Assembly (NCBI GenBank): GCA_026004395.1
Contig: BPJB01000001.1
Coordinates: forward strand, 584,910 to 648,909
Reading direction: 5' to 3'
DNA from: Patescibacteria group bacterium
GTDB lineage: Bacteria; Patescibacteriota; Microgenomatia; Levybacterales; UBA12049
DNA: 64,000 nt
Numbering within the stretch: position 1 is the first letter of the stretch; each line of letters opens with the position of its first letter. The position numbers and the translations under genes are program-made. The notes beneath the pieces were generated by a model, which was not told where the DNA came from, searched no databases, and saw nothing but the letters and a program-made list of their open reading frames with translations. This document shows positions 15,440 to 57,503 of the stretch, piece after piece.

Positions 15440-15635
15440 TATACATTATACTTCATATTTGAGCAAACACAACTCTTAAATACTATACTTGAGGATTAAC
15501 TCAAGAAAAGAGATTAATATAAAAACCAAAGCAAATGAACAAATCAATGTTAATTGTATTTTGGTTGGCTGTATATTGATTAAGGATAAAATATACCTTG
15601 CATTTCTTCAAAAAATATGTTTTGCTATAGATAGC

Positions 15636-15735
15636 ATACCGAGAGGCCGTTTTGGCCCGGCAACCGAGAGTATTACGGTGCCATTGCAGCAATGCATATG
15701 TGCCAGTGAAAACTGGAAATACTTAAGGCCTCTCG
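15636..15735 (+). promoter_or_regulatory. SAM-responsive riboswitch (SAM-I/SAM-IV-like core) in the metK leader.
   Basis: The P1 arms are gagaggcc (15641) and ggcctctc (15728). The conserved core strings GGCCCGGCAACC and GGUGCCAUUGCAGC are present, as is the P4-like hairpin ccagtGAAAactgg. The 3' P1 strand overlaps the 5' arm of the downstream terminator, so mutually exclusive folds are possible. It sits immediately upstream of metK. Confidence 0.6.
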
Positions 15736-42378: not shown

Positions 42379-42403
42379 CCTCCCAAAAAAGGGAGGTTTT
42401 TTT
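42379..42403 (+). terminator. Leader copy 1 hairpin: cctccc-aaaaaa-gggagg followed by T7. It contains the Shine-Dalgarno sequence and abuts the start codon.
   Basis: This is part of a 46-nt segment aaaagccgcctcccaaaaaagggaggtttttttatgatctatgaaa that is repeated with 1 mismatch at 45145..45190. The upstream ggggcggc (42321..42328) is complementary to the gccgcc of the 5' arm. Confidence 0.55.
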
Positions 42404-42410
42404 ATGATCT

Positions 42411-43943
42411 ATGAAAGAATTAGAGCAAAGATTACCAACTGAACATTTATCCTCTTATCATGATAGGATAGCTCAATCAGAAGCTAATAATTTTGATCAT
42501 GCTCGATTTACTGATGGGGAAGAAACAACGTCTATACCTCGTACTATTTATGACAGTCGCCTTTTTCTACATCGTTTAGAAGCTAATTCAATTTTAGACG
42601 AAGCTATACGAGAACCTGAAAGAATTCATTTAGGAGAAGTTGTGGATCGATGGGATATTGAGTCATCCCTAAGACCATTTCATACTCTTCCTGAATATCG
42701 CACAGAATATCCTCATACAGTAATTAATGCACTTGGAGAGTTATTCCAAGAGTACAATCAGGCTTTTGTACCACTCGTTGAGGCAAATAAAGAATGGGAG
42801 ACAGATTATCAATACACAAGATATGGGATAAATGGCGATCCCGTCAATCGCTGGGTACAGATAGATATGATTGGTCTGCCTCAAAGATTTTTAGATGCAG
42901 CTTCTCGTATGGATCAGAGTACCGTACGCGAAGTATTAAGACAGCGAATTTTTGAGATTGAAAATTCTCTTGCAATGTATCAATTACTAGAACGCATACA
43001 CTCAAGAGATGGAGAGTCTTCTCTTTTTGATAGAGTATTTCGATCTTCTCTGCAATCCTTAAGAGAACAATATGGAAAACCGATAGCTCTTTTAGCGCTC
43101 ACTGATCAAAAATACAACAGTATGAAAGCATCGGAATTTGGAAAATCAGAAGAGGAACAGATAACAGATGAAGAAGTAAAACGACTATCAGGATTTGATA
43201 GATTATTCGGTCCACAAGAGTTTTCGGAACATTTAGAAGAAAATGGGGGAGAGTGCGAATATTTGCTTTTTGTACGAGCTTCTGATCCCTTGGAGAAATT
43301 GAGAAAACCCAAAACCACATTTAGCATTCCTTTACTCGAAAATCCTGTTACAAGAAGAATTATCAAAGCCAATGCTATTACATTTAATATTGATCAGCCT
43401 GATGAACCTATTATGTCCATGAGGAGGATCAACGATACAAAAGCATATCTTCCAACAATGGGAATGGCATATAGGGCTGATACATTCGAAGATGTTTTTG
43501 AGGAGATAATCTATCGCAGTAATGATCCTGCATTAATAAAACTTAATCCCCAATTGCGAGAATATTTACGCTCACATGGGATAGATCAACAAAAACTTGA
43601 TTCTGGATATGTTTGCTTCCGTGCAAAGCCGATGTTAGGTTCATATGGCTGCTATGGGCATGTGACAGTTGATACCAGTAATGGAGAGACTCGAGGTGAG
43701 TTGCGCAAAGGTATTCGTGAGAGAGGACCATACGTTATTCAACCTGAGATGACAACACCTATCATTGTCAACGAATCAACAGGACAGACCTATACCTACA
43801 TTGATAGAGTTTTTTTTGCTACCGATGGTAGACATATCACATTTATGGGAGGATTTAGATCACTTATGCCACTTGATTCTATTGAAGCACAGAAAAAAAG
43901 AAATCATGGTAACCACTCAACAGTCTGGGCTGAGATTTATTAA
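42411..43943 (+). CDS. Hypothetical 510-aa protein. Its C-terminal region is weakly ATP-grasp-like.
   Basis: GYVCFRAKPMLGSYGCYGHVTV and DRVFFATDGRHITFMGGF resemble the ATP-grasp patterns vvvKP..Gs.G.GV and D.Rv.v..G. The call is weak. Its stop lies 5 nt before the M20 peptidase start. Confidence 0.45.
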   Translation: MKELEQRLPTEHLSSYHDRIAQSEANNFDHARFTDGEETTSIPRTIYDSRLFLHRLEANSILDEAIREPERIHLGEVVDRWDIESSLRPFHTLPEYRTEYPHTVINALGELFQEYNQAFVPLVEANKEWETDYQYTRYGINGDPVNRWVQIDMIGLPQRFLDAASRMDQSTVREVLRQRIFEIENSLAMYQLLERIHSRDGESSLFDRVFRSSLQSLREQYGKPIALLALTDQKYNSMKASEFGKSEEEQITDEEVKRLSGFDRLFGPQEFSEHLEENGGECEYLLFVRASDPLEKLRKPKTTFSIPLLENPVTRRIIKANAITFNIDQPDEPIMSMRRINDTKAYLPTMGMAYRADTFEDVFEEIIYRSNDPALIKLNPQLREYLRSHGIDQQKLDSGYVCFRAKPMLGSYGCYGHVTVDTSNGETRGELRKGIRERGPYVIQPEMTTPIIVNESTGQTYTYIDRVFFATDGRHITFMGGFRSLMPLDSIEAQKKRNHGNHSTVWAEIY

Positions 43944-45150: not shown

Positions 45151-45175
45151 CCTCCCAAAAAAGGGAGGTTTTTTT
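45151..45175 (+). terminator. Leader copy 2 hairpin, identical to copy 1 (cctccc-aaaaaa-gggagg followed by T7).
   Basis: The upstream ggaggcgg (45101..45108) is complementary to ccgcctcc. An internal hairpin ggtgatataacttatcacc is present at 45117..45135. Confidence 0.55.
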
Positions 45176-45182
45176 ATGATTT

Positions 45183-45920
45183 ATGAAAATTTCGGAATCA
45201 ACCAATCATCAAAGCATTGATACTCGAACTCAGTCTAATAATCCTCTAATAAGAGAGGTTCATGTTGTTTTTGATGCACAACCTGAAGGAGATATTGATG
45301 AAAGTAGAAATGATTTTTCAAGAGAAAGAAAAATAGATATTATAAATCCAGACGGTTATCCCAAAAATATCTATATTGATCCGTATATCATCCAAGAAGC
45401 CACCAAAGAATGGGGTATAGGAGTGAAGCTGGAACTACCACGGAATGTCTTTCATGGAACACAACCTATGGAAGACTATAATCAAGCAACAAGAAGATAT
45501 ATAGAAAAACAATTACAAATCTATGGCAAAGCATACCTTCAGGAAAATCCGATCATTGTAATTGCACTACCAACTTTGATCAACGGTGGAGATGGAACAA
45601 AAGAATCAATAATTTTAGCAATCGGTGATGGTCACCATCGCTTTCGCTACTCAGGAGGGAAAAAAGAGTTTGAGTATCTACCTTCTATTGTCTTTACTCC
45701 GCTACAATACGCTGCTCTTTATAATTTAAACAAGGATCCAAGAGACAAGATTACACCTGAGGAGCTAGAATTGATTTTTATGCAACGTATAGCAGAAGCA
45801 AAACTATCCTTTGAAGCAAGTCTTACCGATAAATGCAAACCTCATCCTTTGCCTCTTTACGGGATACGCACAGTAGAAGAGCTACAAACTCTACTTGACA
45901 CACCTATTCATTCTGCTTAA
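45183..45920 (+). CDS. Hypothetical 245-aa protein with a ParB/sulfiredoxin-fold-like DGHHR motif.
   Basis: ILAIGDGHHRFRYSGG resembles the DGxHR motif of ParB-like nuclease/NTPase domains. The assignment is weak. Confidence 0.35.
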   Translation: MKISESTNHQSIDTRTQSNNPLIREVHVVFDAQPEGDIDESRNDFSRERKIDIINPDGYPKNIYIDPYIIQEATKEWGIGVKLELPRNVFHGTQPMEDYNQATRRYIEKQLQIYGKAYLQENPIIVIALPTLINGGDGTKESIILAIGDGHHRFRYSGGKKEFEYLPSIVFTPLQYAALYNLNKDPRDKITPEELELIFMQRIAEAKLSFEASLTDKCKPHPLPLYGIRTVEELQTLLDTPIHSA

Positions 45921-47295: not shown

Positions 47296-49035
47296 ATGAA
47301 AAATAAAAATCAACAGGAAAAACTCAATCAACTTAGACACTCATGTTCACACCTTCTTGCAGCTGCAGTCTTGGAGCTTTGGCCCAACACCAAACCCACA
47401 ATTGGTCCTGCTATTGAAAATGGATTTTATTATGACTTTGAGTTCCAAGAAAATATAAGTGAAGAAGATCTACCCAAAATAGAGAAAAAAATGCGCGAAA
47501 TTCTTCCTACATGGGAATCTTTCTCTCATAGAGAAGTATCTGCTGACGAAGCAAAGGCTTTCTATAAAAATAATCCTTACAAACTAGAGCTTATAGATGA
47601 AATTATCAAAAAAGGCGAGAAAATCACCTTCTATAAAGCAGGCAAATTTGAGGATCTATGCAGGGGAGGGCATGTTGATCATCCCAATAAAGAAATTGGA
47701 GCATTCAAGCTTCTCTCCCTTGCAGGTGCCTATTGGCGAGGAAGTGAAAAAAATAAAATGTTGACAAGGATTTATGGAACAGCATTTCCAACACAAAAAG
47801 AGTTAAATGAGTATCTTTTAATGCTGGAGGAAGCAAAAAAACGCGATCATAAAAAACTGGGGCAGCAACTGGGATTATTTATGTTTCATGAGACAGCCCC
47901 AGGAATGCCTTATTGGCTACCAAAAGGAGTTATTATTTACAATGAACTAATCAATTTTTGGAGAGAAGAACACTACAATCGAGGATATCAGGAGATTATG
48001 TCACCTCTTTTGAATAAAAAAGCGTTATACGAAACATCTGGACATTGGGAGCATTATAGAGAAAATATGTTCGTTGTCGAAACAGAGGAGAAAGAAGTCT
48101 ATGGTATTAAAGCTATGAACTGTCCAAACGCAATGATTGTTTTTGGAAGTTCCTCTCGTTCATACCGCGATCTTCCACTTCGTCTTGGGGATACAGATAC
48201 TTTACATAGATATGAACGATCCGGAACACTTAATGGGCTCCTCAGAGTCAGAGAGTTTCGTCAAGACGATGCTCATATTTTTGTAACTGAAGAACAGATA
48301 AAATCTGAATATCAGAATATCTTTGCAATTGTTGAAAAGTTTTATTCTATATTTAAAATCTCATATTCTTTTAGATTAGGGACGAGGCCAGAAAAATACA
48401 TGGGAGACCTTAAGACATGGAATAAAGCAGAAACAGCTCTTAAAGAAATTCTCAAAGAAAGCGGAAAAGAATATACCATTGAAGAGGGCGACGGCGCATT
48501 TTATGGTCCCAAGATTGACATTTTGATGAAAGATTCATTAGGCAGATCATGGCAAATGGGAACAATTCAACTTGATTTTCAGCAGCCCAAAAATTTCAAC
48601 CTTCGTTATACCGATATTGACGGTAAGGAAAAAATGCCCGTTGTGATTCATCGAGTGGTCTATGGATCATTAGAACGATTTATTGGTATCTTGCTAGAAC
48701 ATTTTGCTGGTGCCTTCCCGATTTGGCTTTCTCCTATTCAAGTAATGTTACTTCCTATTGCCGATAGGCACGTAGAATATGCACAGGAAACAGCTGATAA
48801 ATTACGCCGCGCTAAAATAAGAGTCTCCATAGATACGCGTTCAGAAACATTGCAAGCTAAGATTCGTGAGGCTACTTTACAAAAGGTACCAATTCTGGGT
48901 ATAATAGGGGATAAAGAAATTGATCAGAATTCTATCTCGGTTAGACTGAGAAATGGAGAAGATCAAGGTCAAGTAGAAATCTCTCAATTTATACAAAGGT
49001 TAAGAGAAGACATTGATAAAAAGACACAAAGCTAA
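47296..49035 (+). CDS. thrS: Threonyl-tRNA synthetase (short form without the N-terminal TGS domain).
   Basis: Zinc-site context HSCSHLLAAAV is present, along with class II motifs and the anticodon-binding domain. It heads the thrS-infC-rpmI-rplT cluster. Confidence 0.9.
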   Translation: MKNKNQQEKLNQLRHSCSHLLAAAVLELWPNTKPTIGPAIENGFYYDFEFQENISEEDLPKIEKKMREILPTWESFSHREVSADEAKAFYKNNPYKLELIDEIIKKGEKITFYKAGKFEDLCRGGHVDHPNKEIGAFKLLSLAGAYWRGSEKNKMLTRIYGTAFPTQKELNEYLLMLEEAKKRDHKKLGQQLGLFMFHETAPGMPYWLPKGVIIYNELINFWREEHYNRGYQEIMSPLLNKKALYETSGHWEHYRENMFVVETEEKEVYGIKAMNCPNAMIVFGSSSRSYRDLPLRLGDTDTLHRYERSGTLNGLLRVREFRQDDAHIFVTEEQIKSEYQNIFAIVEKFYSIFKISYSFRLGTRPEKYMGDLKTWNKAETALKEILKESGKEYTIEEGDGAFYGPKIDILMKDSLGRSWQMGTIQLDFQQPKNFNLRYTDIDGKEKMPVVIHRVVYGSLERFIGILLEHFAGAFPIWLSPIQVMLLPIADRHVEYAQETADKLRRAKIRVSIDTRSETLQAKIREATLQKVPILGIIGDKEIDQNSISVRLRNGEDQGQVEISQFIQRLREDIDKKTQS

Positions 49036-49603
49036 ACAGGACAATCTTCGATATCAATATCGCACTAATGAGCGTATTCAGGCTCCATCAGTGCGGGTAT
49101 TAGATCAGGATGGCAAGCAGATTGGAGTGTTTTCAAGAAGAGAAGCACTACAACTGGCAGCAAATCAAGGTTTAGACCTTGTCGAGATAGCGCCACAAGC
49201 TCAGCCACCTGTTGTCAAAATTATTGATTTCAATAAGTTCCTGTATCAAGAAGCAAAGAAAAAGCAAGAGGAAAAAAGAAAAGCAAAAGTGTCTGAAACA
49301 AAAGAGATTAGACTTGGACCCTTTATGTCAGAAAATGACCTTGCGGTCATGATCAATAGAGGGAGAGAATTTCTGGAAGAAGGAGATAAAATTAGACTTG
49401 TTGTCAAATTTAAAGGACGACAAATTACTCATCCAGAATTTGGAAATAATATAATTAATAGAGTAATTGATGCTCTCAAAGACTTCTCAAAAGTTGACAG
49501 AGAGCCACATATGGAGGGGAAGCAAATGATAGCGCTTCTCTCACCGGAAAGGAAAAAACATGCCGAAAAAAAAGATCAAAAGATCAGTAGCACGAAGATT
49601 TAA
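49013..49603 (+). CDS. infC: Translation initiation factor IF-3.
   Basis: VRVLDQDGKQIGVFSRREALQLAANQGLDLVEIAPQAQPPVVKIIDFNKFLY matches the IF3 N-domain consensus. The ATG at 49013 overlaps the thrS 3' end by 23 nt. Confidence 0.85.
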   Translation: MIKRHKAKQDNLRYQYRTNERIQAPSVRVLDQDGKQIGVFSRREALQLAANQGLDLVEIAPQAQPPVVKIIDFNKFLYQEAKKKQEEKRKAKVSETKEIRLGPFMSENDLAVMINRGREFLEEGDKIRLVVKFKGRQITHPEFGNNIINRVIDALKDFSKVDREPHMEGKQMIALLSPERKKHAEKKDQKISSTKI

Positions 49604-49757
49604 AATCACCAAAACCGGAAAGGTGATGTTTGGTCATCAATACGGAAGTCATTTAAAACTTAAAAAGTCAAAACGTAGAATTCGTCGTCAAAAAGAGCCA
49701 GGAGTTCTTACTGGTACATTTGCAAAGAAAATAAAAAAGATGCTCGGAGCTGCATAA
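49560..49757 (+). CDS. rpmI: 50S ribosomal protein L35.
   Basis: MPKKKIKRSVARRFKITKTGKV. Confidence 0.9.
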   Translation: MPKKKIKRSVARRFKITKTGKVMFGHQYGSHLKLKKSKRRIRRQKEPGVLTGTFAKKIKKMLGAA

Positions 49758-49840
49758 AAAGTAAAGTAATTTAGCAGAAGGAAATTAGCTTTCAGCTTAT
49801 CGAGAATTAAAAAAATTAGTTGTAATTGGAATAAATCATT

Positions 49841-50191
49841 ATGGCAAGAGTCAAAAGAGGCGTCATATCACGCGCAAAACATAAAAAACTGCTCAGTCTT
49901 ACTAAAGGTTATAGAGGCACAAAATCGCGTCTAGTTAAAGTTGCACGCGAGGCAGAGCTTCATGCTGGTCAATATGCTTATCATGGTCGCAAATTACGCA
50001 AACGAGACTTTCGTACTCTCTGGATCACGCGCATTGGTGAAGCTGTTAAAAAGGAAAATCTTTCATATAGTAAATTTATGAACAAATTGAAAAAAGCTCA
50101 TATTGAACTTGATCGTAAAATCCTCAGTGATCTAGTAGTCAATGAGCCAGAAGTTTTTAAAAAATTAGTTGACAAAGTCAAGAGTTTATAA
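49841..50191 (+). CDS. rplT: 50S ribosomal protein L20.
   Basis: MARVKRGVISRAKHKKLLSLTKGYRGTKSRLVKVAREA. Confidence 0.9.
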   Translation: MARVKRGVISRAKHKKLLSLTKGYRGTKSRLVKVAREAELHAGQYAYHGRKLRKRDFRTLWITRIGEAVKKENLSYSKFMNKLKKAHIELDRKILSDLVVNEPEVFKKLVDKVKSL

Positions 50192-50311
50192 TAGTATCAT
50201 AAAACTTACTATGAATAGAGCTTTTTATTTTTGGTTTTACTTTACTCCCTACTCGGGAGGTGTGTTAGTGGCGTAAAAGTCAACTAACAAAGGTAAAACC
50301 ACCTTTGACTA

Positions 50312-50334
50312 CCTCCCAAAAGGGAGGTTTTTTT
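50312..50334 (+). terminator. Leader copy 3 hairpin (cctccc-aaaa-gggagg followed by T7) upstream of the aromatic amino-acid operon.
   Basis: It has the same arms and U-run as copies 1 and 2. The upstream cgggaggt (50254..50261) is complementary to acctccc. It also serves as a plausible terminator for rplT. Confidence 0.5.
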
Positions 50335-50343
50335 GTTGAGAAT

Positions 50344-50571
50344 ATGGAATTAGATAGATTTTTACCAACAAAAGGTATACCAAAAGCAGAACTTATTATT
50401 GACAAAAAGACTGGTCTACCATTAACCGTAAGACCTGATAGACAACCTACGCTGGGATTTTGTGAAAATCCAGTTCTATCAGGTGGTCAGCGAATGTCTT
50501 TAACTGATGAAAAAGAATTTGTTATTTACGAAGCAAAGGTAAATAAACCTGAAAAACCGTTAGGATACTAA
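50344..50571 (+). CDS. Small hypothetical protein (75 aa from ATG 50344), the first gene of the aromatic amino-acid operon.
   Basis: The track ORF begins at a TTG (50305) that lies inside the hairpin, so the ATG at 50344 is preferred. No motif was recognised. Its stop is 1 nt before the DAHP synthase start. Confidence 0.35.
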   Translation: MELDRFLPTKGIPKAELIIDKKTGLPLTVRPDRQPTLGFCENPVLSGGQRMSLTDEKEFVIYEAKVNKPEKPLGY

Positions 50572-50572
50572 T

Positions 50573-51397
50573 ATGATTGAGAATTTAAGAAAACCTATCA
50601 TTATAGCTGGACCATGTGCTGCTGAGAATATGCCGCAAATAGAGTTAACCATTCGTGAGGTTAAAACGCGTGAAATACCCATAATGCGAGCATCAATAGT
50701 TAAACCTCGAACAGAAAACAGCTGGGATGGAATTGGAATAGAGGAAGGAATCCCTATACTAAGAAGAATAAAAGAAGCTGGACTTATTCCTGCTACTGAG
50801 GTCCTTGACATCGAGGAAGCACAAAAAGTTATTGATGGTGTTCTAGGGCAAGATGAAGGAAATATTATGCTTTGGATTGGAGCTCGCAATCAAAATCATC
50901 GCTTTCAGCGCAATCTAGGAAAACTCGCTAGTGAAGATAGGCGTCTGATAGTTGGCGCAAAAAATCAAATATGGTCTGGTGATGCAGAGAGACACTTTAG
51001 AGGCATAATCTCGCATATTTGTGATGGTGGTGGATTTGATAGATCCAGGCTAATTATGATCCATAGAGGTTTTTCTGATACAAACACTAAAGGTTATCGA
51101 AATACACCCGATTATAATATGGCACTGAAAATCAAATACGAGGAAGGAGTTATCATGCTTCTTGATCCATCTCATATTGGCGGAAGCATAGAAAAAGTCA
51201 TAGAAGTAACACAAGAAGGAATGACATTGGAAAGGCAGGGTGTTATTTTTGATGGATTAATGATCGAAATTCACCCAAATAGAGATACTGCAAAGACAGA
51301 TTCAAAACAACAGCTTACTTGGAGAGAATATGACGAATATATCGAACCCCTAGTAAGAGGAGGTACTATCTATGAAACAAAGTCAGCAGCAGACTAA
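50573..51397 (+). CDS. 3-deoxy-D-arabino-heptulosonate-7-phosphate synthase (type I-beta, catalytic core only).
   Basis: IIAGPCAAE, KPRTENSWDG and LLDPSH blocks indicate the DAHPS/KDO8PS family. KPRT rather than KANRS, together with the aromatic-operon context, favours DAHPS. Confidence 0.65.
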   Translation: MIENLRKPIIIAGPCAAENMPQIELTIREVKTREIPIMRASIVKPRTENSWDGIGIEEGIPILRRIKEAGLIPATEVLDIEEAQKVIDGVLGQDEGNIMLWIGARNQNHRFQRNLGKLASEDRRLIVGAKNQIWSGDAERHFRGIISHICDGGGFDRSRLIMIHRGFSDTNTKGYRNTPDYNMALKIKYEEGVIMLLDPSHIGGSIEKVIEVTQEGMTLERQGVIFDGLMIEIHPNRDTAKTDSKQQLTWREYDEYIEPLVRGGTIYETKSAAD

Positions 51398-53057
51398 ACC
51401 TAATGTTCTTATTATAGGTGGTAGCGGACGAATGGGGAAGTGGTTTCAATCGTTTTTTGAAAGCAAGAAGATTAGCGTTCTTATTTATGGAAGAGCATCA
51501 AAAAAATCTCTAACTAAGCTTCTGAAAAAAACTGACATCATTATAGTCTCTGTTCCTATTTTTCAGACAGAAAAGACAATCAAATCAGTTCTTCCATATC
51601 TTCGAAGCGATCAACTTCTCTGCGATATAGCATCTCTTAAAGACCTTTCACTCAAAGCTATGAAGGATGCCAAGTGTGGAACGCTAGGAATGCATCCTCT
51701 ATTTGGACCAAGCATTCTTTCTCCTCAAGGACAAAAAATTGTTTTTTGCCACCAGCATGATAACGATCATGTCACATTTCTAAAAGAACTTTTTTTGCAA
51801 TCAGGAATGGAAATTGTCGATCTTAAAACATCAGAACATGATCAACAAATGGCAGTTATCCAAGCTCTAATTCATGCAGTAAATATCTCACTTGCAAAAA
51901 CCCTTGATAACCAAACATCAATTAATGCTAAATTACAAACACCTCTTTTTACTCTTCAATCTCTTGTTACAAGTAGAGTACTGCAACAAGAACCGCATCT
52001 TATAACGGACATACAACTGCTCAATCCGCATTTCTTGCCAATAATCAAGGAGTTACAAAAATCCATTAATTTATTGGTAGACATTAATATCAAGCAGGAT
52101 CGGCAAAGATTCACTGATCTTTTAGAAAAGCTTCGCAAGAAAACACAGAAAATTGCTCCATATGCTCTCTATCAAACAAATAAAATTCTTACCATGATTG
52201 ATGATCAATCTTTAAATTTGTCTTCGTCATCTCTACAAATAGATCCAAATTTTCCCTTAAAAGTAGCATATCTTGGCCCTGAGGGAACAAATACTCACCA
52301 GGCTGCAATGAAAGTATTTGATAATCAAAAAAATATTTTTGTTGCTAAAGAAGTCATTGATGATATTTTTCAAGCAGTTAATGAAGATGAAGTGGATGCT
52401 GGTATTGTACCTGCTGAAAATTCACTTCAGGGGACAGTGCGTGAAACATTAGATTTACTCTCTAATTCTCCACTTAAAGTTGTTGGCTCATTCACGCTAC
52501 CTATTCACCACTGTCTTCTCTCATTGGAAAACAATTTTAAAAAGATCACAACAGTTGTATCTCATCCTCAAGCACTGGCTCAATGCAAAAATTGGCTAAC
52601 AGATAATCTCCCTAAAGCAAAAATAGTTACAACTACAAGTACTACAGCTTCTTTAAAGAGTCCAAGAAAACACGAAGCTTATATCGCCTCAGAAAAAGCT
52701 AGCAAGATTTATAAAGTTCCGATTCTTGCAAAAAATATTGAAGATAACGCAAGTAATTTAACGCGCTTTTATGTTATTGCCAAATACGATCTTCCAGTAA
52801 AAGGTCTGAATCAAAGCAATACGTTACTCTTTCTGACGATTTTTAATCGTGTGGGAATTCTTAGAGATATACTTGATGTATTTGCTCGTAAGGGAATCAG
52901 TTTAACTAAATTAGAATCTCGTCCAAGCCTTGAAAAAGTCTGGGACTACTGTTTTTATATTGAAGTTGACCACGAACAAGAAAGTAAAAAACTTAAAAGA
53001 GCATTAACTGAGATACAAAAATACTGTAGTACAGTTCGTATCTTAGGACGAACATAA
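51372..53057 (+). CDS. Fused prephenate dehydrogenase (TyrA) and prephenate dehydratase plus ACT domain (PheA).
   Basis: The N-terminal Rossmann fold is VLIIGGSGRMGKWF, with LGMHPLFGP (TyrA). The C-terminal half has VAYLGPEGTNTHQAAMKVF (PDT) and TKLESRPS (the ACT/PheA hallmark). Confidence 0.7.
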   Translation: MKQSQQQTKPNVLIIGGSGRMGKWFQSFFESKKISVLIYGRASKKSLTKLLKKTDIIIVSVPIFQTEKTIKSVLPYLRSDQLLCDIASLKDLSLKAMKDAKCGTLGMHPLFGPSILSPQGQKIVFCHQHDNDHVTFLKELFLQSGMEIVDLKTSEHDQQMAVIQALIHAVNISLAKTLDNQTSINAKLQTPLFTLQSLVTSRVLQQEPHLITDIQLLNPHFLPIIKELQKSINLLVDINIKQDRQRFTDLLEKLRKKTQKIAPYALYQTNKILTMIDDQSLNLSSSSLQIDPNFPLKVAYLGPEGTNTHQAAMKVFDNQKNIFVAKEVIDDIFQAVNEDEVDAGIVPAENSLQGTVRETLDLLSNSPLKVVGSFTLPIHHCLLSLENNFKKITTVVSHPQALAQCKNWLTDNLPKAKIVTTTSTTASLKSPRKHEAYIASEKASKIYKVPILAKNIEDNASNLTRFYVIAKYDLPVKGLNQSNTLLFLTIFNRVGILRDILDVFARKGISLTKLESRPSLEKVWDYCFYIEVDHEQESKKLKRALTEIQKYCSTVRILGRT

Positions 53058-53104
53058 ATGTTGTGCTTAGGAGAATTTATCAGTATACTTAATACTATAA
53101 TACT

Positions 53105-53365
53105 ATGAAAGACCTTGCAAAATTACGTACAGAAATTACACAACTAGATACACAACTTTTAACACTTCTTGCAAAGCGATTACAGCTTGTTAGCAAAATA
53201 GGAGAATACAAAAAAATGCACAATTTACCTATTAGAGATGAAAAACGAGAACAGGAAATCTTACAAGATCTTTATGAGAAAGGAAAGAGTTTACATATCT
53301 CTCAAGAATTAATTAAATTTATCTGGAAAAGAATATTTCAGGAAGCTTACAAGCTTGAAAATTAA
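53105..53365 (+). CDS. Chorismate mutase (AroQ class).
   Basis: It is 86 aa. LRTEITQLDTQLLTLLAKRLQLVSKIGEYKK fits AroQ helix 1. Confidence 0.65.
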   Translation: MKDLAKLRTEITQLDTQLLTLLAKRLQLVSKIGEYKKMHNLPIRDEKREQEILQDLYEKGKSLHISQELIKFIWKRIFQEAYKLEN

Positions 53366-54289
53366 ATGATGGAACAGATACTTTATTTTAACGGTAAATT
53401 TGTAAAAGAATCCGAAGTGCGTATTTCACCAATGACACACGCCCTTCATTACGGCACTGGATGTTTTGAGGGTATACGCGCTTATTACAATAACGATGAT
53501 AATGCTCTTTATATTTTTCGAATGAAAGAGCATTTCGAGCGATTCAAAAAATCCTGTAAATTGCTTTTTATTACTCTTCCTCATAGCGTTGATGAGCTTT
53601 GTGAGGTAACTAAAAAATTAGTTCAAAAGAACTTTAATGAAACGGATCTTTATATCAGACCTCTAGCATATAAATCCGATCTTGCAGTTGGTAACTTTCA
53701 TTTACCTTCGCTTAAGGATAGCCTACTCATTTATACTGTACCCCTTGGTCGCTATTTACAAGCAGAGGAAGGAATACGAGTAAATGTCTCCTCGTGGACA
53801 AGAGTAAGTGATAATTCTATTCCTCCACGAGCAAAAATTACAGGATCCTATATCAATACAGCACTTGCAAAAACAGAAAGTGTATTTAATGGGTATCATG
53901 AGGCTCTCTTCATGGATAAAAACGGTCATATAGTTGAAGGAAGTGCAGAAAACATTTTTGTAGTGAAAAACGGCAAGATTTACACTCCTTATGTTGCTGA
54001 TGATATTTTGCAAGGAATAACACGCGATACCATAATTAAACTTTGTCAAGATGAATTAGGAATTGCAGTTGAGGAAAGAAGTATTGATCGCTCGGAACTC
54101 TATCAGGTTGATGAAATATTTTTGGTAGGAACAGGAGCAGAAGTATCTTCGGTTGTAGAAGTTGATAAAAGAGAAATAGGAGATGGAAAAGTTGGTCCAA
54201 TTGCAAAACGGATAAAAGAACTGTACTTTGATATCGTACATGGTAAAAATAAAAAATATCAGCAATGGTTAACAAAGGTAACAAAATAG
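53366..54289 (+). CDS. Class IV (branched-chain/D-amino-acid type) aminotransferase, probably serving as the aromatic aminotransferase here.
   Basis: HYGTGCFEGIRAY ... VVEVDKREIGDG matches the BCAT fold-type IV pattern. Confidence 0.75.
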   Translation: MMEQILYFNGKFVKESEVRISPMTHALHYGTGCFEGIRAYYNNDDNALYIFRMKEHFERFKKSCKLLFITLPHSVDELCEVTKKLVQKNFNETDLYIRPLAYKSDLAVGNFHLPSLKDSLLIYTVPLGRYLQAEEGIRVNVSSWTRVSDNSIPPRAKITGSYINTALAKTESVFNGYHEALFMDKNGHIVEGSAENIFVVKNGKIYTPYVADDILQGITRDTIIKLCQDELGIAVEERSIDRSELYQVDEIFLVGTGAEVSSVVEVDKREIGDGKVGPIAKRIKELYFDIVHGKNKKYQQWLTKVTK

Positions 54290-54412
54290 CAAAAAGGAGA
54301 TATCTATTATCCTATAATAAAACTTAGTTAACCAAAGAAATAGAAAGGAGAAGTAGAATTTTTTCAGAGAAAAAACTGAAGTTATTAAAAAATTTTCTTT
54401 GAGGATTTTATT

Positions 54413-55471
54413 ATGGAGCAAGAATTAATGACAATTAAAAACAATGCACTCTCACTGATTCTTGATGCGAAAAGTGAGAAAGAACTTGAAGAAATTAAAC
54501 TGCAGTTTCTAGGAAAAAATGGAACGCTCACTCTTGCTATGAAAGAGATAGCAAAACTTCCTCAGAAAAAAAGACCAGAAGTGGGAAAACTAGCAAATGA
54601 AGTCAAGCAAATTATTGAGGATGCTATAGAGAACGCAAAACATTCCTTCCGCGAACAAAAAATTAAAAAAATGCAAAAAATTGATGTAACTGACCCTGGA
54701 ATAAGTCCTCCCTTGGGACATCTCCATCTTGTAACACAAGCAATTGAGGAGATTACGCGTATTTTTGAAAGAATAGGATTTACTCGCGTTCGCTACCCTG
54801 AGGTTGAATGGGACTGGTATGCGTTTGAAGGACTTAATTTTCCTCAAAACCATCCAGCACGAGACGAATGGGAGACTTTTTTTATTAAGCAAGATCCTGA
54901 CCCTAAAAAAGGTCCAGTTCTTCTCACACCTCATACATCATCAGGACAAATTCGGGAAATGGAACGGCAAGTTGCTCTTCAGAAAAAAACAGGAAAAGAG
55001 ATTTCAATCCGGATGTTAAATATAGCCAAAACATATAGACGACAATCTGATGTATCACACACACCTATGTTTCACCAGTTTGAAACACTTGTTGTAGATA
55101 AAAATATTTCTATTGCCGATCTAAAAGGTGTATTAGAATATTTTGTAAAATCATATTTTGGAGAGAAAAGAAAATCAAGAATACGACCATATCATTTTCA
55201 ATTTACTGAACCTTCTTTTGAGACAGATGTTTCCTGCGGTATCTGTGACGGATCGGGTTGCAAACTCTGTAAGGATGGTTGGCTGGAACTGGGAGGAGCG
55301 GGCATGGTCCATCCCAATGTGCTCAAAAACTGCGGAATTGATCCTAAGATTTACTCCGGTTTTGCATCTGGTTGGGGAGTAGAAAGAGTTCTTATGATGC
55401 GAGAAGGAATAGAAATTGATGATTTGAGATTGCTTTATTCAAATAGAGTAGAGTTTTTAGAACAATTTTAA
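54413..55471 (+). CDS. pheS: Phenylalanyl-tRNA synthetase alpha subunit.
   Basis: FQFTEPSFETDVSC...GWLELGGAGMVHPNVL...GFASGWGVERVLMM are class II motifs 2 and 3 of PheS. Confidence 0.9.
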   Translation: MEQELMTIKNNALSLILDAKSEKELEEIKLQFLGKNGTLTLAMKEIAKLPQKKRPEVGKLANEVKQIIEDAIENAKHSFREQKIKKMQKIDVTDPGISPPLGHLHLVTQAIEEITRIFERIGFTRVRYPEVEWDWYAFEGLNFPQNHPARDEWETFFIKQDPDPKKGPVLLTPHTSSGQIREMERQVALQKKTGKEISIRMLNIAKTYRRQSDVSHTPMFHQFETLVVDKNISIADLKGVLEYFVKSYFGEKRKSRIRPYHFQFTEPSFETDVSCGICDGSGCKLCKDGWLELGGAGMVHPNVLKNCGIDPKIYSGFASGWGVERVLMMREGIEIDDLRLLYSNRVEFLEQF

Positions 55472-55547
55472 TGTTTAGGGAAAAATTCAAGCTACATTTG
55501 CAAAATTTTTTAAATTGAATTTGCATGAATAGAGTATTAGTAAATAT

Positions 55548-57503
55548 ATGAATATTAAAATACTTGACAGTTGGTTAAGAGAATATCTAAAAACAGACGC
55601 CAAACCAAAAGAAATTGCAACATCTTTATCTCTTACCAGTGTTTCTGTAGAACGCATGGAAATGCTTGGTGAAGATGTTATCTATGAGATTGAAGTCACA
55701 ACTAATCGTTCTGACCTTATGTCTGTGGTGGGTTTAGCACGCGAGGCAAGCGCAGTACTGCCACAGTTTGGATACAAGGCTAGTTTTAATCCACCTACAA
55801 TTTCCCAACTTAAATATCAACCATCAGAAAATCTTCCACTTACCATCATCAATGATGAAAAACTTGTCTATCGAATTTGCGCAGTTGTGATGGAGGTTGA
55901 TGTCATGAAGTCCCCAGAGTTCATAAGAGAGAGACTGGAGTCAACAGATATAAGAAGTCTAAATAATCTAATTGATATTACAAACTATGTAATGCGTCTT
56001 ATAGGTCATCCTACCCATGTATTTGACTACGATCGGATTATAGGACATACAATAAAAATCCGCGAGTCACAAAAAGGAGAAGAGATCGTCACACTTGATG
56101 GTAAGCGATACACTCTTCCAGGAGGAGATATTATTGCTGAAGATGCTGAAGGAAATATTATTGACCTTCTAGGAATCATGGGTCTTGAAAATAGTGTTGT
56201 GACCGACAAAACAAAAAGAATAATTTTTTTCATTAATAACAACGATCCTTATAGGATACGTAAAACATCGATGGCATTACAGATCAGAACAGAAGCGGCT
56301 CAAATTAATGAAAAATATATTGATCCTGAAATTGCAGATGACGCATTAGCTCTAGGTATTGATCTCTATAAAAATTATGCTAATGGTAAACTTTGTTCAG
56401 AGATTATTGATATCTATCCCTCTCCTTATAAAAGCAAGATTGTAACTTTATCCGAGGAACATCTTCAAAAATTAATGGCTATACCTTTATCAATTGTTGA
56501 AGCTGCAGAAATTCTTAAGCGTCTTGGCTTTATCATACAGATTAAAGAACACTTTCTGGAAGCAGAAATTCCATCTTTTAGAGCCAATGATATTAAAATT
56601 CCAGAGGATTTAATTGAAGAAATAGCACGGGTCTATGGATACCATAATCTCCCCAGTAGGCTACCCCATATTACATATTTGGAGACATTTAATTTAGAAA
56701 AAAGCCCGTATTTTTGGGAAGATCGTGTTAAACAAGCAATGAAATTTTGGGGATATACTGAAGTTTATACTTATCCTATGGTTTCAGAAGAAATGTATGA
56801 AGGACCTATTGAAAACGCAGTTACAATTGCAAATCCATTAGGTGAGGATTTCTTATATATGCGTCGAACACTCGTCCCTAGCCTTCTAAAAGTTATAAAG
56901 GAAAATAGACAATACGATACTCTCCAATTATTTGAAATTGCAAATATCTACGAAAGACAGGAAAGAGATCTTCCCAAAGAAATAAGAATGTTTGCTGGTG
57001 TTGTAAAAAAGAAAGATGTTTCATTTTTTGAGATTAAAGGTCTAATAGAGCAGTTAGCGACTGATTTAGGAATCACTAATCTTAAATTTGAAGCACTTTC
57101 TAAAGTTGGTCTTGAGACACTCATCAAAATAGGAGAGAAGGAGTTAGGAACAATAGAAGTACTTGATGAAGACCTTATAAATTTTGAGTTAAATTTTGAA
57201 ATATTAGTTAGCCATGCTACATTGAAAAAAAGATATAAAAAAATTCCTAAGTATCCACCAATTATAGAAGATCTTGCATTTATTATTGATGAATCAATCC
57301 CAACTGGAGAGATCATTGAAACAATTAAAAGAGTAGACCCACTTATAAAAGATGTTACCCTTTTTGATCGTTTCGGACAAACGCGAACTTTCCATATACT
57401 TTATCAGCACGAAGAAAGAAACTTAACAAGTGATGAGGTAAGTCAGATTCGCAACGCTATTATTGCTACATTAGACAAAGAATATAAAGCCCAACTCAAA
57501 TAA
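55548..57503 (+). CDS. pheT: Phenylalanyl-tRNA synthetase beta subunit (short form).
   Basis: The N-terminus MNIKILDSWLREYL is PheT-like, and the B3/4 and B5 regions are present. The 651-aa length is shorter than the typical ~800 aa. Confidence 0.85.
   Translation: MNIKILDSWLREYLKTDAKPKEIATSLSLTSVSVERMEMLGEDVIYEIEVTTNRSDLMSVVGLAREASAVLPQFGYKASFNPPTISQLKYQPSENLPLTIINDEKLVYRICAVVMEVDVMKSPEFIRERLESTDIRSLNNLIDITNYVMRLIGHPTHVFDYDRIIGHTIKIRESQKGEEIVTLDGKRYTLPGGDIIAEDAEGNIIDLLGIMGLENSVVTDKTKRIIFFINNNDPYRIRKTSMALQIRTEAAQINEKYIDPEIADDALALGIDLYKNYANGKLCSEIIDIYPSPYKSKIVTLSEEHLQKLMAIPLSIVEAAEILKRLGFIIQIKEHFLEAEIPSFRANDIKIPEDLIEEIARVYGYHNLPSRLPHITYLETFNLEKSPYFWEDRVKQAMKFWGYTEVYTYPMVSEEMYEGPIENAVTIANPLGEDFLYMRRTLVPSLLKVIKENRQYDTLQLFEIANIYERQERDLPKEIRMFAGVVKKKDVSFFEIKGLIEQLATDLGITNLKFEALSKVGLETLIKIGEKELGTIEVLDEDLINFELNFEILVSHATLKKRYKKIPKYPPIIEDLAFIIDESIPTGEIIETIKRVDPLIKDVTLFDRFGQTRTFHILYQHEERNLTSDEVSQIRNAIIATLDKEYKAQLK

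What the first reader, a model, noticed from the sequence alone, without database searches (positions are those of the whole stretch)
47296..57503. Phe/Tyr terminal-pathway operon inserted into the conserved thrS-infC-rpmI-rplT-pheS-pheT cluster
Between rplT (ends 50191) and pheS (starts 54413) lies a plus-strand operon: leader copy 3, a 75-aa ORF, DAHP synthase, a TyrA-PheA fusion, chorismate mutase, and a class IV aminotransferase. This places phenylalanine and tyrosine synthesis directly beside Phe-tRNA synthetase, under an attenuator-like leader, in a genome that otherwise looks reduced. The shikimate middle steps (aroB, aroD, aroE, aroK, aroA, aroC) are not in this window. DAHP synthase plus the post-chorismate enzymes, without those steps, would be an odd pathway unless they are encoded elsewhere or chorismate is scavenged.
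Basis: partly seen in the sequence, partly recalled or inferred. Interest (0 to 1): 0.5.

Follow-up and report, generated by a model that had tools for sequence, protein, structure and literature searches.

The report
Attenuator-controlled aromatic amino acid operon, trimmed
A Phe/Tyr-synthesis operon sits between the ribosomal gene rplT and the Phe-tRNA synthetase genes under a classic leader-peptide attenuator; this layout is normal for the Levybacteria lineage, and this genome only differs by lacking the six middle shikimate genes at that spot.

Summary
Gene order, coordinates and family calls all hold, and no aroB to aroC gene lies in the 64-kb window.

The window comes from a Patescibacteria MAG (KatS3mg089; the contig is 1.08 Mb). 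In related Levybacteria the same rplT|pheS gap holds a complete operon: leader, DAHPS, aroB, aroQ/D, aroA, aroK, aroE, aroC, tyrA-pheA, CM, ilvE, pheST. The "insertion" is therefore typical of the lineage.

The window belongs to a sub-clade that lacks the six central genes at this locus. That sub-clade carries a 72-76-aa orphan ORF ahead of DAHPS.

"Leader copy 3" is a classical ribosome-mediated attenuator. It encodes a 21-codon peptide, MNRAFYFWFYFTPYSGGVLVA, followed by an antiterminator and a terminator. It is conserved in 13 loci and occupies the position of E. coli pheM.

DAHPS keeps its catalytic motifs and is under purifying selection (dN/dS 0.22; 66-69% identity across the sub-clade). 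I could not test whether aroB to aroC lie elsewhere in the genome. An operon with DAHPS and terminal enzymes but no middle steps is a known regulatory design elsewhere.

Verdict: a new member of known kinds, of moderate interest.

The parts
47296..50191 (+). Upstream conserved cluster: thrS (47296-49035), infC (49013-49603), rpmI (49560-49757), rplT (49841-50191)
   Evidence: ORFs. Pfam (tRNA-synt_2b, HGTP_anticodon, Ribosomal_L20). Gene calls with IF3 and L35 domains in the identical Logan contig. Same order as E. coli thrS-infC-rpmI-rplT-pheM-pheST.
50169..50197 (+). Promoter-like site TTGACA-N17-TAGTAT. The -35 lies inside the end of rplT and the -10 lies 14 nt before the leader ATG, so the leader mRNA would be almost leaderless.
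   Evidence: 10 of 12 matches. The same TTGAC(A/T)-N17-TAnnnT arrangement lies 10-15 nt upstream of the leader ATG in all 13 related loci (L088 has a GGACA -35), including two where it is not inside rplT. Function is inferred.
50211..50276 (+). Leader peptide ORF, 21 codons plus stop: MNRAFYFWFYFTPYSGGVLVA*. Codons 5-11 are F Y F W F Y F.
   Evidence: Homologous leader ORFs with a run of 5-7 aromatic codons occur in 13 of 13 loci examined. Rfam Phe_leader RF01859 matches at a sub-threshold 33.4 bits, E=0.023, over model positions 1-125.
50232..50249 (+). Attenuator segment 1 (UGGUUUUACUUU + CUCCC), which overlaps the regulatory codons
   Evidence: In the MFE fold it pairs with 50289-50300 (AAAGGUAAAACC) and 50255-50259 (GGGAG). 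The fold is -44.1 kcal/mol, z = -4.05 against shuffles.
50255..50261 (+). Attenuator segment 2 (GGGAGGU). It pairs either with segment 1 or with the 5' arm of the terminator, the latter forming the antiterminator.
   Evidence: With a ribosome placed on any of codons 5-10, all 7 bases of the terminator 5' arm pair with this segment in the nascent transcript (6 of 7 at codon 11; -25.6 kcal/mol against -15.5 for the terminator hairpin). With the ribosome at codon 14, 0 of 7 pair.
50311..50334 (+). Intrinsic terminator: ACCUCCC / AAAA / GGGAGGU followed by a U-run (segments 3 and 4)
   Evidence: It is one of only three such CCTCCC...GGGAGG-T7 elements in the 64-kb window. Each of the three follows a short leader ORF.
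50344..50571 (+). 75-aa orphan ORF (conserved C-terminal PLGY), function unknown. Its stop lies 1 nt before the DAHPS ATG.
   Evidence: dN/dS is 0.12 against the 86%-identity relative. Only two true homologues were found among 1.84 billion representatives. A 72-76-aa ORF ending in GY is present in every short-operon relative where the region upstream of DAHPS is available (not L002 or L089) and absent from full operons. No Pfam or NCBIfam match. The AF2 model is unreliable, pLDDT 44.
50573..51397 (+). Type I-beta DAHP synthase, unadorned, of a Patescibacteria-specific subfamily (aroA-I-beta / aroG-like)
   Evidence: Pfam 80.7 bits. The best PDB relatives are all DAHPS: 1VS1, 3NVT, 3PG8, 1RZM, at E 1e-16 to 1e-17; KDO8PS reaches only E 1e-4. 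The motifs GPCAAE, KPRT, GARN, DPSH, IEIHP and KTDxKQQL are conserved. dN/dS is 0.22. Identity within the sub-clade is 66-69%.
51372..53057 (+). Fusion of prephenate dehydrogenase (TyrA), prephenate dehydratase (PheA) and an ACT domain. It overlaps the DAHPS 3' end by 26 nt.
   Evidence: Pfam PDH_N, PDH_C, PDT (201.6 bits) and ACT. NCBIfam prephenate dehydratase NF008865 scores 252 against a cut-off of 219. The listed top hits carry the same fused architecture (818 relatives at E<=1e-10), mostly from Patescibacteria.
53105..53365 (+). AroQ-type chorismate mutase, 86 aa
   Evidence: Pfam CM_2 at 82.5 bits. It is closest to the T-protein type of CM domain.
53366..54289 (+). IlvE-type class IV (branched-chain) aminotransferase, presumably the Phe/Tyr-forming transaminase of the operon
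   Evidence: NF005146 at 377 bits and TIGR01122 at 344 bits, both above their cut-offs; PabC and D-amino-acid transaminase models fall below theirs. It is linked to CM and the fusion in dozens of Patescibacteria loci. The aromatic substrate role is inferred.
54413..57503 (+). pheS (54413-55471) and pheT (55548-57503), probably co-transcribed with the operon
   Evidence: Pfam. No terminator-like site lies on the + strand between 50328 and the inside of pheT. In relatives ilvE and pheS overlap or are 2-3 nt apart. Co-transcription is inferred.

Best explanation
This is the Levybacteria version of an aromatic amino acid and PheRS operon, controlled by classical ribosome-mediated transcription attenuation.

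How it works. A promoter at the end of rplT starts a nearly leaderless transcript. Its first 21 codons include F-Y-F-W-F-Y-F.
- If charged tRNA-Phe, -Tyr or -Trp is scarce, the ribosome stalls on these codons and covers segment 1. Segment 2 (GGGAGGU) then pairs with the terminator's 5' arm (ACCUCCC), and RNA polymerase reads through.
- Readthrough expresses ORF75, DAHPS, TyrA-PheA, CM and IlvE, and very probably pheS-pheT.
- If the tRNAs are charged, or the leader is not translated, the terminator forms.

Origin. The operon was not inserted in this genome specifically. Relatives carry a complete DAHPS-to-chorismate-to-Phe/Tyr operon at the same place. The window's sub-clade has a trimmed derivative. 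It keeps the committed first enzyme and the post-chorismate enzymes, lacks aroB, aroQ/D, aroA, aroK, aroE and aroC at this locus, and has a small orphan ORF.

What is shown: gene identities, the leader ORF, the alternative RNA pairings, conservation and synteny.

What is inferred: the response to Phe/Tyr/Trp, co-transcription of pheST, and my leaning (about 55-60%) that the six central genes are encoded elsewhere in the 1.08-Mb genome rather than lost.
For: Source and relatives: (KatS3mg089; 1,084,101-bp contig).

Full operon in the same rplT|pheS gap:
- The complete Levyibacteriota chromosome CP066685.
- OBEQ010939117.
- L003, L004 and L027 by tblastn.

Short operon with a small ORF: L083/L084, L086, L088 and L091.

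Leader peptide: conserved, with an aromatic run, in 13 loci. The nucleotide core TGGTTTTACTTTACTYCCC...GGGAGGT is conserved.

Alternative pairings. In L081 the terminator arms change to CCCCC/GGGGG and segment 2 changes to GGGGA, a compensatory change.

E. coli comparison: pheM ([14 protein letters not shown]) sits at the same rplT|pheS position and scores 75 bits on RF01859. The window leader scores 33.4 bits on the same model.

DAHPS appears functional:
- Catalytic motifs are kept.
- dN/dS is 0.22, like the fusion at 0.21 and CM at 0.22.
- Identity is 66-69% across a sub-clade whose fusion proteins are only 48-53% identical.
- In an NJ tree it is an ordinary subclade, sister to a DAHPS that sits next to aroC.

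Precedent: DAHPS plus terminal enzymes in one putatively attenuated operon is recorded in other bacteria (PMC1173090 Table 7).
Against: - No experiment was done. The Phe/Tyr/Trp response is inferred from codons and folding.
- The leader ORF has no Shine-Dalgarno sequence.
- The Rfam score is below the gathering threshold (33 against 55 bits).
- The rest of the genome could not be searched, so 'central genes elsewhere' is untested.
- One close relative (L085) has no DAHPS at all but keeps the terminal genes. L092 keeps DAHPS, aroC and tyrA only. Many Parcubacteria loci show only ilvE-CM-fusion within 10 kb. This mosaic also fits ongoing pathway loss.
- The three aromatic genes have a higher dN/dS (about 0.21-0.22) than ilvE and pheS (0.07-0.08).
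Confidence: 0.62

Rival explanations
1. The pathway is truly truncated. The sub-clade has lost aroB to aroC altogether. CM, TyrA-PheA and IlvE then work on chorismate, prephenate or aromatic keto acids taken from a host or the environment. DAHPS, with the small ORF, is retained for another reason: a second activity, a structural or regulatory partnership with CM, or hand-off of an intermediate to a partner.
For: - The six genes are absent from the locus in seven related short-operon loci (L083, L084, L086, L088, L091, L002 and Daviesbacteria L089) and from the 64-kb window.
- L085 lacks DAHPS yet keeps the leader, fusion, CM and ilvE.
- L092 keeps only DAHPS, aroC and tyrA.
- Most Parcubacteria loci show ilvE-CM-fusion with no aro genes within 10 kb.
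- The small ORF appears only where the central genes are missing.
- Patescibacteria are generally reduced symbionts (own knowledge).
Against: - DAHPS retains all catalytic motifs. It has been under purifying selection both recently (dN/dS 0.22) and over deep divergence (66-69% identity).
- An F-type DAHPS is also kept next to the fusion in L091 and L002, at 73% identity to each other.
- Retaining two otherwise useless enzymes (DAHPS and AroC) in L092 is hard to explain without the rest of the pathway being present.
- A related 0.76-Mb genome has the complete pathway, so small genome size is no argument.
- The Trp codon in the leader is conserved.
Confidence: 0.3
2. The operon is a recent foreign insertion, specific to this genome, into the thrS-infC-rpmI-rplT-pheST cluster. 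This is the literal reading of the finding.
For: The operon interrupts a cluster that is contiguous in E. coli.
Against: - The same placement occurs in more than 10 Levybacteria loci whose fusion proteins are only 44-54% identical to the window's.
- GC content is flat across the region, 0.34-0.37.
- CM-fusion-pheST linkage also occurs in Parcubacteria (L023, L025, L042).
Confidence: 0.03
3. The leader is not ribosome-mediated. It is instead a ligand-, tRNA- or protein-binding RNA such as a riboswitch or T-box, and the aromatic-rich ORF is a by-product of a U-rich sequence.
For: - The region is U-rich in a 35% GC genome.
- The leader ORF has no Shine-Dalgarno sequence.
- The three window copies share the same terminator module.
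Against: - No T-box or riboswitch match at the leader, even at E up to 5.
- The reading frame, start, stop and aromatic run are preserved in 13 loci despite nucleotide divergence.
- Sister elements in relatives carry Thr runs before thrS, Ile/Thr runs before ilvA and Met runs elsewhere. That is the signature of codon-specific attenuation.
Confidence: 0.05

Closest known systems
E. coli pheM leader and pheST attenuator (Rfam RF01859 Phe_leader)
   Same: - Same genomic position, directly after rplT and ahead of pheS-pheT.
- A short leader peptide with a run of Phe/Tyr codons: [14 protein letters not shown] against MNRAFYFWFYFTP....
- A GCCUCC/GGAGGC-U7 type terminator.
- Classical four-segment logic.
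- The window leader aligns over the full RF01859 model.
   Different: - The score of 33.4 bits is below the family's gathering score of 55; E. coli scores 75. None of eight related loci passes either.
- Five biosynthetic genes lie between the leader and pheS.
- Tyr and Trp codons are mixed with Phe codons.
- The leader ORF lacks an SD and starts about 14 nt after a -10 box.
- Homology versus convergence is not resolved.
Complete Levybacteria aromatic operon (for example CP066685: leader-DAHPS-aroB-aroQ-aroA-aroK-aroE-aroC-tyrA/pheA-CM-ilvE-pheST)
   Same: Same flanks (thrS-infC-rpmI-rplT upstream; pheST, a PBP1 gene and tyrS downstream), the same type of leader peptide (MKQFNNRKITFWFYFTS), and the same fusion, CM and ilvE.
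   Different: The window lacks the six central genes (about 5 kb). It has an extra 75-aa ORF. Its DAHPS belongs to a different subclade (45-47% identity, 274 against 252 aa, a C-terminal extension and a 6-aa insertion).
Operons combining DAHPS with post-chorismate enzymes: E. coli aroF-tyrA (own knowledge); Thermus thermophilus aroA-I-beta>tyrA and Bacteroides thetaiotaomicron pheA>hisHb>aroA-I-beta-aroQ>tyrA, listed with putative attenuators in Song et al. 2005 (PMC1173090)
   Same: The first committed enzyme and the branch enzymes are co-regulated in one unit, while the common-pathway genes lie elsewhere.
   Different: - In those organisms the rest of the pathway is known to exist. Here that is untested.
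- The aminotransferase here is IlvE-type, not HisH-b.
- PheRS genes are part of this unit.
Archaeoglobus fulgidus TyrA-AroQ-PheA-ACT four-domain fusion (Song et al. 2005, PMC1173090)
   Same: Prephenate dehydrogenase, prephenate dehydratase and ACT lie on one polypeptide.
   Different: The protein here has no AroQ domain between TyrA and PheA. Chorismate mutase is a separate 86-aa gene downstream.

Membership tests
Classical leader-peptide transcription attenuator | A short ORF with tandem codons for the amino acid(s) made or used by the regulated genes | tested here: met
   The 21-codon ORF has F Y F W F Y F at codons 5-11. The same feature occurs in 13 of 13 related loci.
Classical leader-peptide transcription attenuator | An intrinsic terminator between the leader ORF and the first structural gene | tested here: met
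   A 7-bp stem with 5 GC pairs plus T7 at 50311-50334. The hairpin is -15.5 kcal/mol.
Classical leader-peptide transcription attenuator | A mutually exclusive antiterminator that forms when a ribosome stalls on the regulatory codons, and does not form when the ribosome reaches the end of the ORF | tested here: met
   Constrained co-transcriptional folds: 7 of 7 bases of the terminator arm pair with GGGAGGU for stalls at codons 5-10 (6 of 7 at codon 11), and 0 of 7 at codon 14. The same behaviour appears in 9 of 12 relatives parsed. This is computational only.
Classical leader-peptide transcription attenuator | Readthrough increases on starvation for the cognate amino acid | not testable with these tools
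   Needs reporter assays, term-seq or in-vitro coupled transcription-translation.
Rfam RF01859 Phe_leader | Covariance-model score at or above the gathering threshold (55 bits) | tested here: not met
   33.4 bits, E=0.023. The E. coli pheM control scores 75 bits. No related locus passes.
DAHP synthase, type I-beta | DAHP_synth_1 fold with metal ligands (Cys, His, Glu, Asp) and the KPRT and GARN substrate motifs, closer to DAHPS than to KDO8PS | tested here: met
   Pfam 80.7 against a cut-off of 25.5. PDB DAHPS hits at E about 1e-17 against KDO8PS at 1e-4. Motifs are conserved in the alignments.
DAHP synthase, type I-beta | NCBIfam equivalog score (TIGR01361 cut-off 267.75 bits) | tested here: not met
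   97.3 bits. The Patescibacteria subfamily is divergent; the relatives sitting in full shikimate operons belong to the same subfamily.
KDO8P synthase (KdsA) | Score above the TIGR01362 or NF003543 cut-offs | tested here: not met
   29.6 and 29.9 bits against cut-offs of 314 and 242, and only the N-terminal 80 residues match.
Prephenate dehydrogenase / prephenate dehydratase / ACT fusion | All the domains above Pfam thresholds on one polypeptide | tested here: met
   PDH_N 45.1, PDH_C 45.7, PDT 201.6 and ACT 39.4 bits. NF008865 scores 252 against 219.
IlvE branched-chain aminotransferase | Equivalog cut-offs (NF005146 279 bits; TIGR01122 245.55 bits) | tested here: met
   377.3 and 343.8 bits. 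Activity on phenylpyruvate or 4-hydroxyphenylpyruvate was not tested.
Complete shikimate pathway in this organism | aroB, aroD/Q, aroE, aroK, aroA and aroC present | tested here: inconclusive
   They are absent from the 64-kb window and from the locus. The other roughly 1.02 Mb of the genome could not be searched. The one attempt, an AroC search, had no power: Levybacteria carry two AroC types only 40-41% identical to each other.

The most novel reading that the evidence does not exclude
The sub-clade has really lost the six central shikimate enzymes, yet keeps a catalytically intact DAHP synthase, a clade-specific small protein and the post-chorismate enzymes under aromatic-amino-acid attenuation. 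That would point to a split pathway shared with a host or partner (intermediates exchanged), or to a new role for the DAHPS and small-ORF pair.
Probability: 0.27. Interest if true: 0.7.

Novelty: new member of a known kind. Interest (0 to 1): 0.42.

Why it matters
Regulation in Patescibacteria (CPR) is almost unstudied. My text searches found no paper that links leader-peptide attenuation with CPR.

This locus, and the sister elements in relatives, show that textbook ribosome-mediated attenuation is used widely in Levybacteria. It controls amino acid synthesis genes and aminoacyl-tRNA synthetase genes. It uses a shared terminator module and nearly leaderless leader ORFs.

The series of full, trimmed and further-eroded versions of one operon at one fixed locus is a clean natural experiment on how a biosynthetic pathway is dismantled or redistributed during genome reduction.

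If the central steps are truly missing, the retained DAHPS would be a concrete, testable case of metabolic interdependence. If they lie elsewhere, the finding is an ordinary and tidy example of co-regulating control-point enzymes.

Tried and rejected
1. Searching for AroC of this genome. A homologous-protein search with the CP066685 AroC listed no protein from the 1,084,101-bp contig. I reject this as evidence of absence. L087 and L092 carry a second AroC type only 40-41% identical to the query, and those were not listed either.

2. ORF75 function.
- No Pfam or NCBIfam match.
- An exhaustive HMMER search found only two true homologues, plus weak hits to repeats in giant proteins that I regard as spurious.
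- The AF2 model has pLDDT 44, so no fold search was run.
- There is no BLASTP similarity between the type A small ORF (window) and the type B small ORF (L085) beyond the C-terminal GY.

3. ORF127 of L085 as a DAHPS remnant. BLASTP finds no similarity.

4. Neofunctionalised DAHPS. I considered this because identity drops to 45-47% between short-operon and full-operon enzymes while staying at 66-71% within each group. I downgraded it for three reasons.
- The NJ tree shows the short-operon type as an ordinary subclade, sister to a DAHPS that sits next to aroC.
- All catalytic motifs persist.
- L091 and L002 carry the full-operon type of DAHPS in a short operon.

5. Rfam at gathering threshold finds no leader, T-box or L20 leader, in the window or in eight relatives.

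6. Literature searches for KatS3mg089, for Patescibacteria with shikimate, and for CPR with leader peptides returned nothing relevant.

7. No Thr-type leader was seen upstream of the window's thrS by eye, although relatives have one.

Full report
**Observation**

- thrS, infC, rpmI and rplT (rplT ends at 50191)
- a leader region
- a 75-aa ORF (50344-50571)
- a DAHP-synthase-family gene (50573-51397)
- a TyrA-PheA-ACT fusion (51372-53057)
- an AroQ chorismate mutase (53105-53365)
- a class IV aminotransferase (53366-54289)
- pheS (54413-55471) and pheT (55548-57503)

The aminotransferase passes the curated IlvE cut-offs.

The DAHPS-like protein is divergent. It scores 97 bits on TIGR01361 against a cut-off of 267. 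It is still far closer to DAHPS than to KdsA, which scores 30 bits. Its best solved relatives are all type I-beta DAHP synthases. The metal and substrate motifs GPCxxE, KPRT, GARN, DPSH, IExHP and TDxKQQL are all present.

tblastn with AroB, AroQ, AroA, AroK, AroE and AroC from a relative finds nothing in the 64-kb window.

**Source and relatives**

The fusion protein is identical to a protein of 'Patescibacteria group bacterium' KatS3mg089, on a 1,084,101-bp contig. Hundreds of fused TyrA-PheA-ACT homologues exist, mostly in Levybacteria, Microgenomates and Parcubacteria.

I fetched 79 related loci from species-representative genomes and eleven more by exact protein look-up. I mapped the window's genes and the six central shikimate genes onto them.

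**The placement is lineage-typical**

The complete Levyibacteriota chromosome CP066685 has this gene order: thrS, infC, rpmI, rplT, DAHPS, aroB, aroQ, aroA, aroK, aroE, aroC, tyrA/pheA, CM, ilvE, pheS, pheT, a PBP1 gene, tyrS.

The same full block lies between rplT and the fusion in L003, L004, L027 and L087. Partial contigs (L005, L006, L008, L009, L012, L082) show aroC directly before the fusion.

An aromatic operon inside the thrS...pheT cluster is therefore the normal state for Levybacteria. CM-fusion-pheST linkage is also seen in Parcubacteria (L023, L025, L042).

**What is particular to the window**

The window belongs to a sub-clade with a trimmed operon: rplT, leader, small ORF (72-76 aa), DAHPS, fusion, CM, ilvE, pheST. 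Other members of the sub-clade, with fusion identity to the window:
- L083/L084, 86%
- L091, 65%
- L088, 53%
- L086, 51%, on a 565-kb contig

The six central genes (about 5 kb) are missing at the locus.

Further variants exist:
- L085 has the small ORF plus an unrelated 127-aa ORF and no DAHPS.
- L092 has DAHPS, aroC, tyrA only, CM and ilvE.
- L002 has DAHPS abutting the fusion.
- A Daviesbacteria contig has leader, DAHPS, fusion, CM and ilvE at a different genomic place.

**The leader**

The 152 nt between rplT and ORF75 contain an ORF at 50211-50276. It encodes MNRAFYFWFYFTPYSGGVLVA and is followed by a strong intrinsic terminator at 50311-50334.

The free RNA folds at -44.1 kcal/mol, z = -4.05. 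In that fold the codon run UGGUUUUACUUU and CUCCC (segment 1) pair with AAAGGUAAAACC and GGGAG (segment 2), and the terminator is intact.

I then folded the nascent transcript with a ribosome parked on different codons:
- On any of codons 5-10, GGGAGGU pairs with all seven bases of the terminator's 5' arm, ACCUCCC (six of seven at codon 11). That antiterminator is -25.6 kcal/mol, against -15.5 for the terminator.
- On codon 14, none of the seven bases pair.

This is the classical four-segment attenuator.

Homologous leaders occur in all 13 loci examined. Examples are MNRSWFYFYFTSQTGR, MSSAQAWFYFYFTSLTGR, MKQFNNRKITFWFYFTS, MNLRTKTYFWFYFTPSTGGSLVE and MKTNQVNKWFFAYFAFRKEGVC. The nucleotide core is conserved.

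There is a compensatory three-way change in L081. The terminator arms become CCCCC and GGGGG, and segment 2 becomes GGGGA.

A TTGAC(A/T)-N17-TAnnnT promoter (GGACA -35 in L088) lies 10-15 nt before each leader ATG. The leader mRNA would therefore be nearly leaderless, with no Shine-Dalgarno sequence.

**Comparison with E. coli**

E. coli has thrS-infC-rpmI-rplT-pheM-pheS-pheT, and PheM is [14 protein letters not shown].

Rfam's Phe_leader model scores the E. coli pheM region at 75 bits. It scores the window leader at 33.4 bits over the full model, which is below the gathering score of 55. No relative passes either.

The element therefore works like the pheST attenuator and sits where that attenuator sits, but it is not a member of the Rfam family by Rfam's own criterion. 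Homology versus convergence remains open.

No terminator-like site lies between the leader and the inside of pheT. In relatives, ilvE and pheS overlap or are 2-3 nt apart. pheST is therefore very probably under the same attenuator, as in E. coli. Classical attenuation of aminoacyl-tRNA synthetase genes is otherwise documented in gamma-proteobacteria and some Actinobacteria (PMC1262725).

**Is DAHPS a relic?**

Against the 86%-identity relative, dN/dS values are:

| Gene | dN/dS |
|---|---|
| DAHPS | 0.22 |
| fusion | 0.21 |
| CM | 0.22 |
| ORF75 | 0.12 |
| ilvE | 0.07 |

Across the sub-clade, DAHPS is 66-69% identical, while the fusion is only 48-53%. DAHPS has therefore been kept by selection for a long time.

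Its 45-47% identity to full-operon DAHPS first suggested a functional shift. An NJ tree argues against that. It shows an ordinary subclade whose sister, in L092, sits next to aroC. In addition, L091 and L002 carry the full-operon type of DAHPS in a short operon.

**Are the central genes elsewhere in the genome?**

I could not search the rest of the genome. The one indirect attempt had no power.

Three things make me lean towards the central genes being elsewhere, at about 55-60%:
- the purifying selection on DAHPS
- the retention of DAHPS and AroC together in L092
- recorded precedents for operons with DAHPS and terminal enzymes but no common-pathway genes (PMC1173090 Table 7; E. coli aroF-tyrA from my own knowledge)

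Three things keep true loss with scavenging alive, at about 30%:
- the mosaic of eroded versions
- the loss of DAHPS in L085
- the many Parcubacteria loci that show only the terminal module

**The small ORF**

It is clade-restricted and evolves fast. It comes in two barely alignable types that share a C-terminal GY. It appears only where the central genes are missing. Its function is unknown, and structure prediction failed.

**Novelty and verdict**

The gene content and the mechanism are both of known kinds. The TyrA-PheA-ACT fusion is a shorter relative of the A. fulgidus TyrA-AroQ-PheA-ACT protein.

New points are the use of classical attenuation in Patescibacteria and the nesting of an aromatic operon between a pheM-like leader and pheST.

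The finding is real and partly explained. It is moderately interesting as it stands. It would become more interesting only if the whole-genome scan shows that the central pathway is truly absent.

Noticed in passing
Their leader ORFs are MSTNLYIMVYFIALLRWGGNLVTIR* and MDKLFIRNVVIFLLKGGGNNVVI*. They precede a 510-aa orphan ORF plus an M20 (DapE/ArgE-like) hydrolase, and a 245-aa orphan ORF with a DGHHR motif. The codons are mixed hydrophobic (I, V, L, F, Y, M), so the amino acid sensed is unclear. These are the only three CCTCCC...GGGAGG-T7 elements in the 64 kb.
   Followed up: partly
L010:2633, L027:724, L007:453, L010:181, L086:2305, L088:1980 and 2413, L091:1637, L030:6586 and 7154: Relatives hold a whole family of attenuators built on the same terminator module but with different regulatory codons. 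Thr runs lie before thrS (MKQSAIASTTTTKLS*, MKISAIICTTTTISS*). Ile/Thr runs lie before threonine dehydratase (MNKNQIITITTIPS*). Met runs lie before small unknown ORFs (MQIIVESVEMMMSNPS*, MTNTANNLMMMNISS*, MARNSTAMMMQMTS*). Ile/Val/Leu-rich leaders lie before an IlvB-like TPP enzyme in Daviesbacteria. Classical attenuation appears to be a general regulatory strategy in this CPR group.
   Followed up: partly
L011:4884, L014:3763, L022:5395, L056:3058: Aromatic-run leader ORFs also precede aro, CM or fusion genes in Paceibacterota/Parcubacteria loci and in a Dehalococcoidia locus. Examples are MKGQTDTKRNFYFYFFFSPASGVGLVL*, MNPAINGTVYYFFFFWRKPKLV* and MPGQKFFAYYWFYYFSWRSRAGEGWA*, the last with a terminator. 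I checked these only by pattern.
   Followed up: no
window 15629-15732: A SAM-I/IV riboswitch aptamer scores 45.5 bits, above its gathering score of 41.1. It lies just upstream of a 368-aa ORF at 15754-16860.
   Followed up: no
L081, L087, L092 (aroC genes): Levybacteria carry two chorismate synthase types that are only 40-41% identical to each other; L087 and L092 are 74% identical to each other. They also carry either type II (L081) or type I (L087) dehydroquinase in otherwise syntenic operons. This implies gene replacement inside the operon.
   Followed up: partly
L087:3190-3330, L003:3690-3820, L027:3775-3940: In some full-operon relatives, 130-170 nt of structured, GC-richer sequence lies between the attenuator terminator and DAHPS. 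In L087 it includes a long inverted repeat (ATTGTCATTGCGAG...CTCGCAATGACAAT). It may be a small repeat element.
   Followed up: no
window 50322-50344, 42392-42411, 45164-45183: The 3' arm of each terminator (GGGAGG) lies 13-16 nt upstream of the start codon of the first structural gene. It could double as a sequestered Shine-Dalgarno sequence, adding translational control. The spacing is long for that role, and I did not test it.
   Followed up: no
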